Positions 15,001-33,000 of a stretch of 64,000 bases of DNA are shown here, piece after piece. How positions within the stretch are numbered: position 1 is the first letter of the stretch; every line of letters begins with the position of its first letter. The position numbers were made by a program. This DNA is from Octopus vulgaris (taxonomy: Eukaryota). The stretch is taken from positions 5,084,001 through 5,148,000 of the forward strand of contig OX597824.1 in assembly GCA_951406725.2 (NCBI GenBank), in the 5' to 3' direction.

Positions 15001-18000
15001 CAATATATTATGTGGTGCTGTGTAGTCTCTGTCTTTTTAAAGAGAGCTTGGCACCATCCATATTGCTTTGAATATCATGGCAACTCCCTTGATTAGTAGA
15101 GTTCTTTCCACAGTGTAATAATAATATATATTGACGGTTAATAAATTATCCTCTTTGCTGCATATTCATTGCTTGAATGATTTCCTTCTACGAGACACAC
15201 ACGATTAATAATGTATGTACGGTGGTCATCTTTGTTGATTGTACTTGTTGATCAAATAATCATTCACCCCCCCCCCGTTTGTCATTCAAAACTATTGTTT
15301 TGTCATGAGAATTTTTTCACACGAATTGACACAGATTTGTGAAATCATTCCTGTCCCTTGAGTACAGGATTTTCGTTGCCTGCACACTCGCACCACTGTC
15401 CTAATCAAACTCTTAAATACTTATTCAAGATGCTTTATTAAAAGCGAAATTAACGAATTACATAATTGTGTTGTGCATTTTTGAGAATGCAATCTTGTAT
15501 CAGCAATCCTTCATAAACTCTTTGAACCTTCTCACCTGTGTTTAGGCTGTAATAAGGTTTAATTCCCTGTTATAATCCCTCAGTTATTTAACATTGAGTT
15601 CCTTTGTAATATATTTCGAATAATGGCAAACAATCCATTGTTTGCCTTCCCATAGCTTTCGTTTTATCTTCGTCGTCGTCCCCCACAGAATTGGTTCCTA
15701 TTTATAACTATAAAATAACCTACAAAAAATAAAAATTACGAAAAATCAGGGTTGCTTTTATTTCAGATTTGTTAGAATTTGACATTTGAAACTTGTAATA
15801 TCGGCAAATATTTCCTAATGCATTCAGTTCTTGCTCTCTTATTGCTCTATGACTGTCAGCTCATGATTCATCGTTGAGGTCACTCGTTTCAGGTTGACCT
15901 TTCTGTAAGATGTCAGACTTTCTGATGATTTAAAAACTGTTAAGTCTGTTACTGAAGAAGAATCAGTTTTACTTAGATTTAACAAAAAACAAACCCGATA
16001 CTATAGAGAACAAGGAAAAGAAACCCTTTACTATAAACGATGCTGGTTCAATATCCATTTGCCCCCAAATTCACTTTTCTTTTCGTGGTAAATCTAGTTT
16101 GAGGCCGATGATTCCAGATTTAAACGGCTCCCTTTCTTAAACAGGGTCTAATCTTCAGTGATATTGAATTCTAAAAAAATGACTTCATTGTTTTATACTA
16201 AAGGCTACCATTTCATCAGTTCCCGTTCGTTTTATGGTGGGTTGGATGGGTCTTCATCTTACCATTTCTGTGGCTCTTTATCAGCTCCTGTGTAAAGGCT
16301 CAGCCTCAGATCTGCTTTCACCATTTCCTTTGTCTTCCTTGTTATTCCTCTTCTGCACATTCTTCCCACTTGGATCACTTGGCACTTCCATTTACCATTC
16401 TGTCACTCTGCACATCACATATCTACTGGCTTTGTCTTTAATGTTTTTTAAATATTATAACCCCCTCCTCTCCAATTACCACCACCATCCCAATTTACTG
16501 ACACATTACCATTCTTAAATTTCTAGTTTTTAAAAATATTTTAATCTATTCTTTTCAGATTTTGAAGCACCCATGGCTGCCATTAGGAAAAAATTGGTTA
16601 TTGTTGGTGATGGTGCTTGTGGTAAAACATGCCTTCTCATAGTGTTTAGTAAAGACCAATTTCCTGAAGTGTACGTCCCCACAGTTTTTGAGAACTATGT
16701 GGCAGATATAGAAGTAGATGGAAAACAGGTAAGTTTCAGTTCTTCATTAATGCAATTGTCTTAACAGTGCCACCAGCAATGGTGTGCATGCAAATCAGTT
16801 TTTTTTATCCCTCAGAAATATATCATTTTGATATCATTTTGATATTGGAGACAGCCATATTTCTTTTGAATTTTGACAATTTGGTTTGCAGACAATGTTT
16901 TTTTGTTTTTTTTTTCTTTTTGTCGCTTCTGTTTCCAATATTTGTTCATGTTCCTCAGCCGTTCGTACACTTTCCAGTCAGAATATCAATTGGTCATGTT
17001 TTTACGGAAGGACGAACTTGCTTGTATTGATATTTCAATTTATGTTGAAATTTTAGGGATGTATATATAAGAACATATTCTAGTCCTTCTTTGAGATATA
17101 CTTTTCCAATGGAGTCACCTTATTTTCCAAAGGATAGTATGATTATATATTGGAATAGTTTTTTTTATTTTTTCCCATTGTTTGAAACCTATCTGTTCTG
17201 TGGTTGACATTGTATACATCCTAAATGCAGGATGAGATCTTAGACATTCAGTATGTGTGCAATTGTCATTTCAGGGTGTTGTTTTATCATGTCAAAATGA
17301 ATCTTTTATGCGTTCATTTTTTTTTCCCCTTCCACATATTGCAAAAGTGAATCCACTTTGCCTTTTTTCCTTTTTGGTTCATTGTGTAAAGTGGGGGGGA
17401 AAGTGTTTTTTGTTTTTTTTCAATGAATTATGAAATGGATTTTGTTTTGCATCTTTTGTTCATAAAAGAAAAAAAAACATACTGAGGGTAAAAAGAAAAA
17501 AAAATGGTGTGCCTAGGCTGGTTTTATCGTACTGAAGAATTTAGTTGAAATCGGTTACACTTTTGGTATTTTATATTTCGTTCTGTTTCACTTTTATAAA
17601 TATTTGAGCAAAGTCTTCTTTGCAACATCGAATTTTCAAACACGATCCACCTAGGGATGAAATAGTTAAGGTGACCTGTCAGCATTCCCAACTGAAGCTA
17701 CAGTCGTGTCCAGGTAAGCAACAATTGTAAATTTAACTGCATGTGATATTTTATTAGATATTTTAATTGTACTTAGAGTGAATTTTAGGTTTTTTTAGTA
17801 TTCTATCAAAATACCTGACAAGGGAGATGCATGCTGTTTCCTGTATTTAAAGCACTGTGATGTTGCCTTGCTTATTCCGAGTTGTGAATTATTGAGAAAC
17901 CTGGGATCTAGTCTTCTACTTCAGTTAAAGTTCTTGAAATATCCGGCCAAAGAGGAAATTGTTACAATATCCATATTCTTTACCATTAAACTTTGAAGTA

Positions 18001-30000: not shown

Positions 30001-33000
30001 TTTTTAAAATTTTAAAGTCAGTTGGTTGTAAAGTTCATAGATCACAACATAATCTAGAAAAGTTACTGAACATTGATCTTTTCACACATTTAAATTTTAA
30101 AAAGTTTTATAAATACTGGGTGACTTATTCTGATTATAATCTCTCAGATTATAACCTTATCTTTAAAAGCGAAAGTATTTTTAAAAATATTTATATGCAC
30201 ACCATTGATCAATTTGTCAGCCTGTTTTAACGTCCCTGGGTGTGTTACATAGATTGGATTTTAAACTAGCAATCATTATTTAGGAACCAAGGACAAATAT
30301 TCTTATCCCGAAGGCCCCACATAATGTAGGTACTAAATTATAATCCTATTTTCATCTATATTAATATGAAAACATTGACTTGCTAAATTTAATTCAATTT
30401 TTCAAGGTTAGATTAGGGGTTGTGGGATTAGTAATAGAATGTCTACTTAATTTCACTCCTTTTGTTCTCATCACAGGTCTGTTAATCCTTTTGGTATTAA
30501 GCCACTTCAGACCACTTATTTTTAAAGTGATATGAATGGAAACCTTCCATCAAAATTTCATGTTTTGTTCTAAGCACCAGCTTAATGAGGTTTTTTTTTT
30601 TTTTTTACTAAATTCCTTCATTTATTTTCAAAATTGAAAGACTATTCCAATTATAATAATAACCAAAAAACAAAACAAACCTAGTTTCATATTTCCAAAA
30701 TTACATTATTTTCTAATAGCTGAGAATGCTAATGTTTGTATTAATAATTTTCAATGTTTTAGGAATTATTTAATTAATGATTTGAATTTTCTTCCTTAGG
30801 TTGAATTGGCTCTTTGGGATACTGCTGGACAAGAAGATTATGATAGGCTACGACCTTTGTCTTACCCTGACACAGATGTGATTCTTATGTGCTTTTCTAT
30901 CGATAGTCCAGACAGTTTGGAAAATATACCGGAGAAGTGGACCCCTGAAGTGAAACACTTTTGTCCCAATGTTCCTATCATTTTGGTCGGCAATAAGAAA
31001 GATCTACGAAATGATGAAAATACAAAGAGAGAACTTATGAAGATGAAGCAAGAACCGGTACGACCTGAAGACGGTCGTGCTATGGCTGAAAAGATCAATG
31101 CCTATAGTTACTTAGAATGTTCTGCTAAGACCAAAGATGGTGTGAGGGAAGTGTTTGAAACAGCTACTCGGGCAGCACTTCAAGTAAAGAAGAAGAAGAA
31201 AGGAGCCTGTACCATGTTGTAATTTGGACTCGCATCAATTTTTCTCATTCTTTCCAACTTTTTCCTCTCCCCCCCCACTTATGTATCCCACTTACAACAA
31301 AGAAAAGGAAACTTTTTTTTTTCAAAACATGCTTTTTGTTACAAAAAAAAAGAAAAAAACTTGCTGCTTTCTCCAATGTTCACAAACTTAGTCCACTTTT
31401 TGCAGATATCTAATCTAAATCTAATCAATTTGATTCACTGATTTTTTTTGCAAGTCAGTTTGAACGAGATGATAAAAATTATAAAAAAGAATATATATAT
31501 ATGAAATTATATTTAAAATGAATTTAAAAAAATAAAAAATGTTTGTATGGACACGTGGACTACAGATAGGTATGTGTGTGCATGGTTGACTGGTTTGTAT
31601 GTCTGTAGATACATAAAACGAAATTGTTCATGCTGCTATTGGCATCATGCTCAACAGCCTTTTCAATATGCATTCATGAACCCTTTTTCTTACTCTTATG
31701 CTGGTATTCATTCCTGTTTTGCATAACATTTTATTTCAACATTTTTTTTTTTTTCATTTGCCATTGGTTATAGTTAAACTGTTTGTATTATTATTATTAT
31801 TATTATGCCAGTATTTTTTTCTTATCGTAACAAAACGAAAGTAAATCTGAATGAAAAAAAACAAACAACTTAATCTCTCCTTGAAGTATCGGAGAGATAG
31901 TAAACCTGACCATTGTAGCTAAATTGTGTGCTGGTATCTTCCAACATTGAAGTATTATTTTTCTAAGTTAGAATATTTTCTGCCGCCTTATTGCTCATCT
32001 GTAGCTGTCTTCAGGTATCTGTCAACTGCAGTACTTACTAGATACAGAGACCAAAATCATTATTTTAAACCACATACCTGCTTTCCGTCATAAATGTATT
32101 TGGATGAATGGATTAAAACTTCTTCTCTAGGTAGCTCTCTGGAATGGTGTTACCTTTTTGTCAGACAGCTTTATCTACATCATAAAGAAAGTCTTTCATC
32201 TTCAGCTGTCACTTTTTAATGATATGGTGAATATAATTTGGCAGATTTTTTTCTTAAGACTTAGTTATTTCACCTTTATTGAACTAATATTATTAACCCT
32301 AATAAAATATCGACTGATGAATGGATTCACTGTTCTTTATTGTATAAAGACTGGCTGCTTCTTCAGTGATATGACAGGTTTTTAATTCTTTTAATTTTGT
32401 CTGATTTTTATATCTGACTGGTCCTAATTTTTTTTTAATGGAATAAACTTATGCCAGAATTACAATTCCGCATATTAAGTCTTTTTTTTTTTTCCTTTCT
32501 AATATAATTAAGACATTCTCAAAAAAAAAAAAAAAGCCTTAAATTGCTTTTTAATTATCAGCAAGAATAAGCGTTGCAGGAACCGAGTTAAGATGTTCCA
32601 AATAGGTTGTGTTTTTAAAACTGTTCCAAAGATATTTTCTTGTTCCTGTGTGCACGTGTACAGAATTCTTCATTGACTTTTTTTGAGTATTAACAAGCAT
32701 GTAGTTGAAGAAAATCTGTAATAAAGGTTCTTATTTGATTAAAAAGTTGTTTTTTAAAGTTTGTCTAATTTTCCTAATCTGAGTTAAGGACAATCAACCA
32801 ACATTTATTAGTTCAGCTAAGACTTAATTAATAAAAGACTGTTTTCCTAGTTAGATGAAGCAAAACTGTTTTTAAAATTCCTTATTTTGATACGATAGGT
32901 GGTCTTTCCAACACATTTGCTTCTTGTAAAATCTTTGATGTATTCCTAATACCAGTTCCTCATATCCAGTTCAAACCAAATTTCAACTGAAGTAGCAAGG

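What the first reader, a model, noticed from the sequence alone, without database searches (positions are those of the whole stretch)
16573..31222. One RhoA gene, two proteins: duplicated, mutually exclusive terminal exons covering 73% of the GTPase
Seen in sequence: one exon encodes residues 1-52 and ends in a phase-0 donor. Two separate 423-nt exons (26302-26724, 30800-31222) each start [10 protein letters not shown] after a good acceptor and run to their own stop. I found no second copy of the N-terminal exon between them or elsewhere in the window, so they do not look like two tandem genes. Inference: alternative last-exon choice, coupled to polyadenylation, gives two 192-aa RhoA isoforms from one promoter, a within-gene analogue of the RhoA/RhoC paralogy. 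Established parallels are KRAS4A/4B and the CDC42 isoforms, but those swap only a short C-terminal exon, whereas here 140 of 192 residues are duplicated. I do not know of this being described for Rho1, and cannot check that here.
Basis: partly seen in the sequence, partly recalled or inferred. Interest (0 to 1): 0.9.

Follow-up and report, generated by a model that had tools for sequence, protein, structure and literature searches.

The report
Octopus Rho gene, two alternative last exons
An octopus Rho GTPase gene has one first coding exon followed by two old, intact copies of its large last exon, so it most likely makes two Rho variants by choosing between them, a known way of diversifying a protein that has not been described for this gene.

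Summary
Exon 1 (16573-16728) encodes residues 1-52 and ends CAG|GTAAGT. Two 423-nt exons (26302-26724 and 30800-31222) each follow an AG acceptor, start [10 protein letters not shown] and run to their own stop.

The copies share 124 of 140 residues but only 74.5% of bases. Four-fold sites are at chance identity, 13 of 43, and pN is 0.09 against pS 0.87. The duplication is therefore old, and both copies are kept by selection.

The window holds no second N-terminal exon or P-loop.

A public model, XP_014768513.1 (Octopus bimaculoides RHO isoform X3), joins exon 1 to exon A at 100% identity. It also adds 17 N-terminal residues from an exon outside the window. Exon B is the canonical mollusc type, 95% identical to named snail and mussel Rho.

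The best reading is one Rho1/RhoA-type gene with tandem-duplicated alternative terminal exons.

- Not shown here: the exon 1 to exon B junction, and any coupling to polyadenylation.
- "One promoter, two proteins" is too narrow.
- Precedents that swap whole domains exist (Drosophila pipe, PGRP-LC).
- I found no published description.

This is a new member of a known kind, of moderate interest.

The parts
16559..16728 (+). ATG exon of the Rho gene. 16559-16572 is 5' leader, read as codons ..DFEAP in the N-extended isoform. The CDS 16573-16728 encodes residues 1-52 (P-loop GDGACGKT, switch I). The acceptor AG is at 16557-16558.
   Evidence: Pfam Ras profile positions 1-47, E=3.1e-13. The residues DFEAP+MAAIRK of P0005 match the in-frame bases before the ATG.
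16729..16734 (+). Phase-0 splice donor GTAAGT after codon Q52.
26270..26301 (+). Polypyrimidine tract and AG acceptor of terminal exon A (27 of 30 pyrimidines before the AG).
26302..26724 (+). Terminal exon A: residues 53-192 plus a TGA stop. It carries G3 DTAGQ, G4 NKKD, G5 SAK, the polybasic tail KKKKRGR and the CAAX box CILF. This is the divergent copy.
   Evidence: Pfam Ras profile 48-160, E=1.2e-34. 100% identical to XP_014768513.1 (P0005).
26725..30767 (+). 3' UTR of A of unknown length, followed by the rest of the intron that the B isoform must remove. It holds no Rho-like N-terminal exon, no P-loop and no CpG-rich stretch. There are 12 AATAAA/ATTAAA hexamers, the first at 26907 (ATTAAA) and 27183 (AATAAA), against a window background of 2 per kb.
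   Evidence: Use of any poly(A) site was not tested.
30768..30799 (+). Pyrimidine tract and AG acceptor of terminal exon B (20 of 30 pyrimidines). An in-frame TAG lies directly before the exon.
30800..31222 (+). Terminal exon B: residues 53-192 plus a TAA stop, with the tail KKKKKGA and the CAAX box CTML. This is the canonical mollusc-type copy.
   Evidence: Pfam Ras profile 48-160, E=3.7e-35. 95% identical to Biomphalaria (P0010) and Mytilus (P0033) Rho. It groups with them in the tree at 90/88 support.
31531..31536 (+). First AATAAA after the stop of exon B. It is a candidate poly(A) signal only.
   Evidence: Not tested.

Best explanation
The window holds the 3' two-thirds of a single Rho1/RhoA-type GTPase gene of Octopus bimaculoides or a very close relative. 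One exon encodes residues 1-52, with the P-loop and switch I. It is spliced from its phase-0 donor either to terminal exon A, 9.6 kb downstream, or past A to terminal exon B, 14.1 kb downstream. Each terminal exon supplies residues 53-192, its own stop and presumably its own 3' UTR and poly(A) site.

The two exons arose by an old tandem duplication of the 423-nt terminal coding exon. They now differ at 16 residues, all between positions 126 and 192. These lie in the Rho insert helix, the next helix, the start of the last strand, the last helix, the polybasic tail and the CAAX box. Switch II and the nucleotide-binding motifs are identical.

The likely outcome is two Rho isoforms with the same GTPase core but different surfaces for effectors or regulators and different membrane-targeting tails. 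B is the conserved housekeeping form and A a derived, probably more restricted form. Alternative 5' exons outside the window add an optional N-terminal extension.

Shown: the exon anatomy, the homology, the selection on both copies, the absence of a second exon 1, and a public model with the exon 1 to A junction. Inferred: the exon 1 to B junction, mutually exclusive use, the poly(A) coupling and any functional difference.
For: Exact exon anatomy and splice signals.

A against B:
- 315 of 423 bases and 124 of 140 residues are identical.
- 78 of the 108 base differences fall at third codon positions.
- pS is 0.87 (saturated) and pN is 0.092.
- Four-fold sites match at 13 of 43, against 27.7% expected by chance.
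- Residues 53-125 show no amino-acid change although only 33 of 73 third positions match.
- Both copies are therefore old, selected, and not homogenised by gene conversion.

The homology stops at the exon edges (26300-26720 against 30798-31218).

The Pfam Ras profile is split cleanly: exon 1 covers positions 1-47, and A and B each cover 48-160. Neither terminal exon can make a GTPase without exon 1.

The window has only one exon-1-like sequence and only one P-loop in its + frames. It has no N. No CpG-rich stretch lies between A and B.

XP_014768513.1, 'ras-like GTP-binding protein RHO isoform X3 [Octopus bimaculoides]' (P0005), is a 17-residue extension plus exon 1 plus exon A at 100% identity. 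The label X3 implies further isoforms of the same gene.

B is 95% identical to named gastropod and bivalve Rho and groups with them.
Against: I saw no transcript or protein record that joins exon 1 to exon B. The best listed matches to B are 96% identical, not 100%. The look-up that could have shown hidden cluster members was not available.

The only direct support for the exon 1 to A junction is an automated gene model, and I could not inspect its transcript evidence.

The 5' end of the gene lies outside the window. A second exon-1 copy further upstream cannot be excluded.

Poly(A) hexamers after A occur at about 3 per kb against a window background of 2 per kb, so they show nothing.

A has the stronger acceptor tract. 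How A would be skipped to make the conserved B form is unexplained.

No A-type exon was found in any other species: 1 of 211 fetched proteins is at least 60/70 identical to the A tail. Conservation of the arrangement is therefore not shown.
Confidence: 0.8

Rival explanations
1. There are two separate tandem Rho genes. Exon B has its own first coding exon and promoter, and these were missed.
For: The gene's 5' exons lie outside the window, so not all of the locus is visible.
Against: No exon-1-like sequence lies between A and B or anywhere else in 64 kb; the next tblastn hit has E=0.39. There is no P-loop in the + frames of the A-B interval and no CpG-rich stretch there. The window has no N gap. 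A partner exon upstream of exon 1 would need an interleaved gene order, which a tandem gene duplication does not produce.
Confidence: 0.06
2. Only one of the two exons is used. The other is a dead exon copy, or is included only in unproductive transcripts.
For: I saw no transcript data. Only the exon 1 to A junction is in a public model.
Against: Synonymous sites are saturated, yet both reading frames are open over 140 codons. Both copies keep G3-G5, the polybasic tail and a CAAX box, and residues 53-125 are identical. A dead copy of this age would carry stops and frameshifts. B is the canonical mollusc sequence, and A is in the annotated model.
Confidence: 0.05
3. It is an assembly artefact. 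A paralogous or allelic Rho terminal exon was wrongly placed within this locus.
For: The region is rich in repeats, with dispersed repeats flanking the exons at 25663-25860 and 29499-29690. Such repeats can mislead assemblers.
Against: 25% base divergence with saturated silent sites rules out a haplotype copy. The sequence is continuous with no N. If A belonged to a gene elsewhere, that gene would need its own exon 1, whereas the public model built on the species' assembly joins A to this exon 1.
Confidence: 0.05

Closest known systems
KRAS4A/4B and the CDC42 canonical and brain isoforms (alternative homologous last exons in small GTPases)
   Same: One gene has tandem homologous 3' exons used alternatively. 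The resulting isoforms differ in the hypervariable tail and the CAAX box. [quoted passage not shown]
   Different: There the swapped exon encodes only the C-terminal end. Here it encodes 140 of 192 residues, including switch II, G3-G5 and the Rho insert. The differences extend into the insert helix and two further helices, not only the tail. RHOA is not among the ten human cases listed in that paper.
Drosophila pipe and PGRP-LC (mutually exclusive homologous terminal exons)
   Same: Tandemly duplicated terminal exons are chosen one at a time. [quoted passage not shown] They also report that PGRP-LC selects 3' variable regions by competing RNA structures. From recall, each such exon encodes the main functional domain.
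   Different: The protein families differ, and there are more than two alternatives. I did not look for competing RNA structures in the octopus intron.
Vertebrate RhoA/RhoB/RhoC paralogues
   Same: They share the protein family. Exon B scores best against human RhoA (268.8 bits, against 262.3 for RhoC). Exon A scores marginally better against RhoC (263.9) than against RhoA (262.9). From recall, the vertebrate paralogues also differ mostly in the C-terminal third.
   Different: The vertebrate diversity comes from whole-gene duplication with separate promoters. The score differences here are too small to imply any orthology of A to RhoC or of B to RhoA.
Canonical single-isoform Rho1/RHO of other protostomes (Aplysia/Biomphalaria/Mytilus RHO, insect Rho1)
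   Same: Exon 1 plus exon B corresponds to this protein. The B tail is 62-63 of 70 identical to the Biomphalaria and Mytilus tails.
   Different: No named relative in the lists carries an A-type tail. The Mytilus isoforms X2 and X4 differ only at the N-terminus.

Membership tests
Rho subfamily of Ras-like small GTPases (RhoA/Rho1 type) | Ras-family G domain with the G1-G5 motifs | tested here: met
   Pfam PF00071 matches exon 1 at profile positions 1-47 (E=3.1e-13), exon A at 48-160 (E=1.2e-34) and exon B at 48-160 (E=3.7e-35). GDGACGKT is in exon 1. DTAGQ, NKKD and SAK are in both A and B. The motif names are from established knowledge.
Rho subfamily of Ras-like small GTPases (RhoA/Rho1 type) | Closest relatives are RhoA/B/C or Rho1 rather than Rac or Cdc42 | tested here: met
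   Every PDB match listed at the E-value cut-off is RhoA, RhoC, RhoB or fungal Rho1: 55 sequences for B at E<=1e-50 and 49 for A at E<=1e-70. The best E-values are 9.5e-80 for B and 2.9e-78 for A.
Rho subfamily of Ras-like small GTPases (RhoA/Rho1 type) | Rho insert helix (about residues 124-136) and a C-terminal polybasic stretch plus CAAX box | tested here: met
   The exon A residues align without gaps to residues 53-188 of human RhoC, which includes the insert. The fragment model, of low confidence, has a helix at residues 125-136. The tails are [11 protein letters not shown] and [11 protein letters not shown].
Alternative terminal exons derived from tandem exon duplication | Homologous exons lie next to each other on one strand, with the same length, phase and acceptor position | tested here: met
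   Both are 423 nt and both follow an AG in phase 0. They lie 4075 nt apart on the + strand. tblastn of one against the other gives E=9e-85.
Alternative terminal exons derived from tandem exon duplication | Both copies are kept by purifying selection | tested here: met
   pN 0.092 against pS 0.87. Four-fold sites match at 13 of 43, which is chance level. Residues 53-125 are identical.
Alternative terminal exons derived from tandem exon duplication | A single upstream exon feeds both; there is no second copy of it | tested here: inconclusive
   This is met within the 64-kb window. The gene's 5' part lies outside the window, so the whole locus was not seen.
Alternative terminal exons derived from tandem exon duplication | Transcripts carry one or the other exon, each with its own 3' end | not testable with these tools
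   Only a public gene model with the exon 1 to A junction was seen.

The most novel reading that the evidence does not exclude
Octopus solves with one locus what vertebrates solved with RhoA/B/C. An ancient tandem duplication of the exon that encodes three-quarters of the G domain lets a single Rho1 gene make two GTPases. They share the nucleotide-binding core but differ in the insert helix, the helix after it (residues 141-150) and the prenylated tail. Their use would be regulated, perhaps tissue-specific, and possibly combined with an optional cysteine-bearing N-terminal extension. At position 154, A keeps the Phe seen in 8 of 8 non-mollusc outgroups, while B shares Tyr with the snail and the mussel. 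The duplication could therefore predate the split of the mollusc classes, with A lost or unnoticed elsewhere.
Probability: 0.35. Interest if true: 0.6.

Novelty: new member of a known kind. Interest (0 to 1): 0.42.

Why it matters
Invertebrates are usually treated as having one Rho1 protein. If both isoforms are made, the octopus has two Rho variants that differ exactly where effectors, regulators and membranes are read. Knock-down, localisation and pull-down work in cephalopods would then need to be isoform-aware.

It would also be the largest known exon swap in a small GTPase. It would offer a natural experiment on which parts of the Rho surface can be varied while the catalytic core is held fixed.

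It changes no general principle, because tandem exon duplication followed by alternative use is well established.

Tried and rejected
- **Second N-terminal exon.** tblastn at E up to 100 and a P-loop pattern scan found none.
- **N-terminal extension exon of isoform X3.** It is not in the window. The best hit is a chance-level 7 of 10 match inside a tandem repeat, E=31.
- **Shared flanks between A and B.** Only a dispersed repeat family is shared.
- **A-type exons in other species.**
  - The two whole-exon searches and one search restricted to the variable tail listed no close relative of A other than the O. bimaculoides record.
  - Each search lists only the best 120 clusters at 90% identity, so this is weak evidence of absence.
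- **Dating the duplication with a tree.**
  - I used 42 of the 214 proteins held: 14 named, 26 unnamed chosen for closeness to A or B, and the 2 window exons. Rows were cut to the 140-residue region.
  - B sits with the molluscs at 90/88 support. A is unplaced at 70/85. The age of the duplication is not resolved.
- **The listing of cluster members.** I tried it to find the O. bimaculoides B isoform and the second member of the P0005 cluster. It was not available.
- **Rfam, tRNA and tandem-repeat scans.** They found nothing bearing on the gene.
- **Fold of the exon A peptide alone, with a 30-row alignment.** Mean pLDDT was 52.6, so I used it only for rough helix and strand limits.
- **Literature searches**. 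None describes Rho alternative terminal exons in any invertebrate.
- **Boureux et al. 2007, a Rho-family evolution paper known to me from recall.** It could not be read: the recalled id is not held, and a title search was malformed and not repeated.
- **Searches not run.** Genome contigs holds only bacteria and archaea. The phage, plasmid and E. coli collections, the representative-protein search and the protein atlas cannot bear on a cephalopod locus or on such a conserved family.
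Full report
**What is there**

- Exon 1 (16573-16728) reads [52 protein letters not shown] and is followed by GTAAGT.
- Exon A (26302-26724) and exon B (30800-31222) are both 423 nt. Each follows an AG after a pyrimidine tract: 27 of 30 pyrimidines for A and 20 of 30 for B.
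- Both start [11 protein letters not shown] and both run to a stop.
- The window has no N.
- The introns would be 9573 nt (exon 1 to A) and 14071 nt (exon 1 to B). A's stop and B's acceptor are 4075 nt apart.

**Is it more than chance, and is either copy dead?**

- A and B share 315 of 423 bases and 124 of 140 residues. Of the 108 base differences, 78 fall at third codon positions.
- By Nei-Gojobori counting, pS is 0.87 (beyond correction) and pN is 0.092.
- Four-fold degenerate sites match at 13 of 43. The chance expectation from third-position composition is 27.7%.
- Residues 53-125 show no amino-acid difference although only 33 of 73 third positions match.
- The duplication is therefore old, there has been no recent gene conversion, and both copies have stayed under strong purifying selection.
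- The homology stops at the exon borders (26300-26720 against 30798-31218). The only other similarity between the two neighbourhoods is a dispersed repeat.

**One gene or two?**

- The Pfam Ras profile is divided cleanly. Exon 1 covers positions 1-47, and A and B each cover 48-160.
- G1 (the P-loop) and switch I are only in exon 1. G3-G5 are in A and B. Neither terminal exon can make a GTPase alone.
- tblastn of exon 1 against the window finds itself (E=2.4e-32) and then nothing better than E=0.39.
- The P-loop pattern occurs once in the + frames of the window, in exon 1, and not between A and B.
- No CpG-rich stretch lies between A and B: at most 9 CpG per 400 nt, observed/expected 0.41.
- A tandem pair of complete genes is thus excluded within the window.

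**Public records**

I searched exon by exon and did not join the exons. The spliced 192-residue models were neither assembled, searched nor folded, so nothing here rests on a joined sequence.

- Exon A matches at 100% one cluster, P0005 = XP_014768513.1, 'PREDICTED: ras-like GTP-binding protein RHO isoform X3 [Octopus bimaculoides]', 209 aa.
- Its sequence is MSRLLTCLRPTDDFEAP, then exon 1, then exon A. This names the organism, or a very close relative. It also shows that an automated annotation already joins exon 1 to exon A.
- The residues DFEAP are the in-frame bases just before the ATG, downstream of an acceptor AG at 16557-16558. The first 11-12 residues are not encoded anywhere in the window.
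- The gene therefore starts upstream of the window and has alternative 5' exons. It makes at least one 209-residue form as well as the expected 192-residue forms.
- Exon B has no 100% match in the list. Its best matches are 95-96% identical and include Biomphalaria Rho (P0010) and Mytilus RHO isoforms X4 and X2 (P0033, P0036), each at 95%.
- The database is clustered at 90% identity, so the octopus B form would be hidden inside such a cluster. The tool that lists cluster members was not available. The exon 1 to B junction is therefore inferred, not seen.

**Which copy is which?**

- Among the 211 fetched proteins, 12 are at least 60/70 identical to the variable tail of B. Only P0005 is that close to the tail of A.
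- A search restricted to the A tail (residues 71-140 of the exon) listed nothing above 83% identity apart from P0005.
- In a maximum-likelihood tree of 42 rows, B has a short branch (0.021) and groups with the gastropod and bivalve sequences (support 90/88). The rows were 14 named proteins, 26 unnamed ones chosen for closeness to A or B, and the two exons, out of the 214 proteins then held.
- In the same tree A has a five-fold longer branch (0.11) and no supported position.
- At the 16 differing sites, B usually carries the state common in other animals and A a state of its own (T126, A141, K145, S148, K176, F192).
- Position 154 is the exception. A has the Phe of all 8 non-mollusc outgroups, while B shares Tyr with the snail and the mussel. 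That single site hints at a duplication older than the mollusc classes, but a one-base reversal would explain it as well.
- The age is open. Silent-site saturation says only that it is old.

**Where the isoforms differ**

- All 16 differences lie at residues 126-192.
- A fold of the exon A peptide alone has low confidence (mean pLDDT 52.6; 60-70 in this part). It places helices at residues 125-136, 141-150 and 164-185 and a strand at 155-158. This agrees with what I recall of RhoA structures.
- On that map the differences fall as follows:

| Sites | Element |
|---|---|
| 126, 128, 132 | Rho insert helix |
| 141, 142, 145, 148 | the following helix |
| 152, 154 | before the last strand |
| 165, 176 | the last helix |
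| 186, 188, 190-192 | polybasic tail and CAAX box ([11 protein letters not shown] in [12 protein letters not shown] in B) |

- All ten named comparators end in Leu, so the Phe of A is a derived state.
- From recall, a C-terminal Leu or Phe directs geranylgeranylation. The insert helix and the tail are the parts of Rho read by effectors, RhoGDI and membranes.
- Against solved structures, B scores best with human RhoA (268.8 bits, against 262.3 for RhoC). A scores marginally better with RhoC (263.9 against 262.9). The gaps are too small to mean orthology.

**How it most likely works**

Transcription starts upstream of the window. The ATG exon's donor is joined either to A, with cleavage and polyadenylation somewhere in the 4 kb after A, or to B if A's acceptor and poly(A) sites are passed over.

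This gives two Rho proteins with an identical catalytic core and different peripheral surfaces and tails. B is the conserved general form and A a derived form, probably of restricted use.

A has the stronger acceptor tract, so making B needs A to be skipped or suppressed. How that happens is unknown. Poly(A) hexamers after A are only slightly above background, 12 in 4.1 kb against 2 per kb in the window, and prove nothing.

**What is known**

- Eight full-text searches found no description of alternative terminal exons in Rho1 or RhoA of any invertebrate. For those I saw listings only.
- Passages of PMC9882654 list C-terminal alternative splicing in the human RAS superfamily: KRAS, CDC42 and eight others, but not RHOA. 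They say only KRAS and CDC42 yield distinct membrane-targeting tails.
- Passages of PMC9013439 describe mutually exclusive tandem-duplicated terminal exons in Drosophila pip and competing-structure control of the 3' variable regions of PGRP-LC.
- The mechanism is therefore a known kind.
- The supplements of these papers were closed. Most subscription-journal papers are not in the library, including a 2007 Rho-family survey I recall, so an earlier mention cannot be excluded.

**Verdict**

- It is a new member of a known kind, already present in an automated annotation but, as far as I could search, not described.
- Comparative genomics across cephalopods and other molluscs, and all transcript evidence, stayed unchecked. 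No tool here reaches animal genomes or reads.

Noticed in passing
window 16557-16572, and upstream of the window: The ATG exon has its own acceptor, and the bases before the ATG are read as ..DFEAP in public isoform X3. That isoform adds MSRLLTCLRPT from an exon not present in the window. Cysteine-bearing N-terminal extensions of 15-53 residues are also annotated for Rho in Mytilus (P0036), Tribolium (P0136), Oratosquilla (P0139) and Dufourea (P0065). This looks like a recurrent, unexplained extended Rho1 isoform in protostomes.
   Followed up: partly
window 25663-25860, 29499-29690, 34310-34457; partial inverted copies at 25003-25081 and 25745-25791: A dispersed repeat of about 150-200 nt, 85-90% identical between copies, sits about 450 nt upstream of exon A and about 1.1 kb upstream of exon B. 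It has no tRNA or Rfam match, so it is probably a SINE-like element.
   Followed up: partly
window 7617-8217 (+) and 48161-48577 (-): Transposon relics. One is a mariner-type transposase fragment (Pfam Transposase_1, E=8.9e-18); the adjoining ORF 7849-8217 in another frame gave no Pfam match. The other is a Tc1/Tc3-type transposase HTH (HTH_Tnp_Tc3_2, E=7.1e-17).
   Followed up: partly
window 3958-4419: A 30-nt tandem repeat of 15.4 copies (92% matches) that is the most CpG-rich spot in the window (observed/expected up to 2.4, against a median of 0.54). It lies 12 kb upstream of the ATG exon.
   Followed up: no
window 43300-44700: A stretch with CpG observed/expected near 1 and GC of 46-49%, in a window whose median GC is 35%. 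It lies 12 kb downstream of exon B and could be a promoter or a young repeat.
   Followed up: no
window 54159-55179, 60528-60656, 61984-62497, 63112-63499, 63620-63967: Long microsatellites: (GTAT) x255, (TCT) x43, (AAT) x171, (TAA) x130 and CCT/TCTTCT arrays.
   Followed up: no
database proteins P0004 (Glossina) and P0006 (Pangasius): Both top the hit lists only because they contain an exact internal repeat of a Rho segment (47 and 34 residues). These are most likely assembly or model artefacts, not exon duplications of the kind seen here.
   Followed up: yes
database proteins P0008, P0012, P0021, P0023: These are unnamed ORF-type records of 140-209 aa that begin at or just before [11 protein letters not shown] and run to the CAAX box. 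Residues 53-192 therefore also lie in one uninterrupted ORF in other, unidentified records, so the single large terminal exon may not be peculiar to octopus.
   Followed up: no
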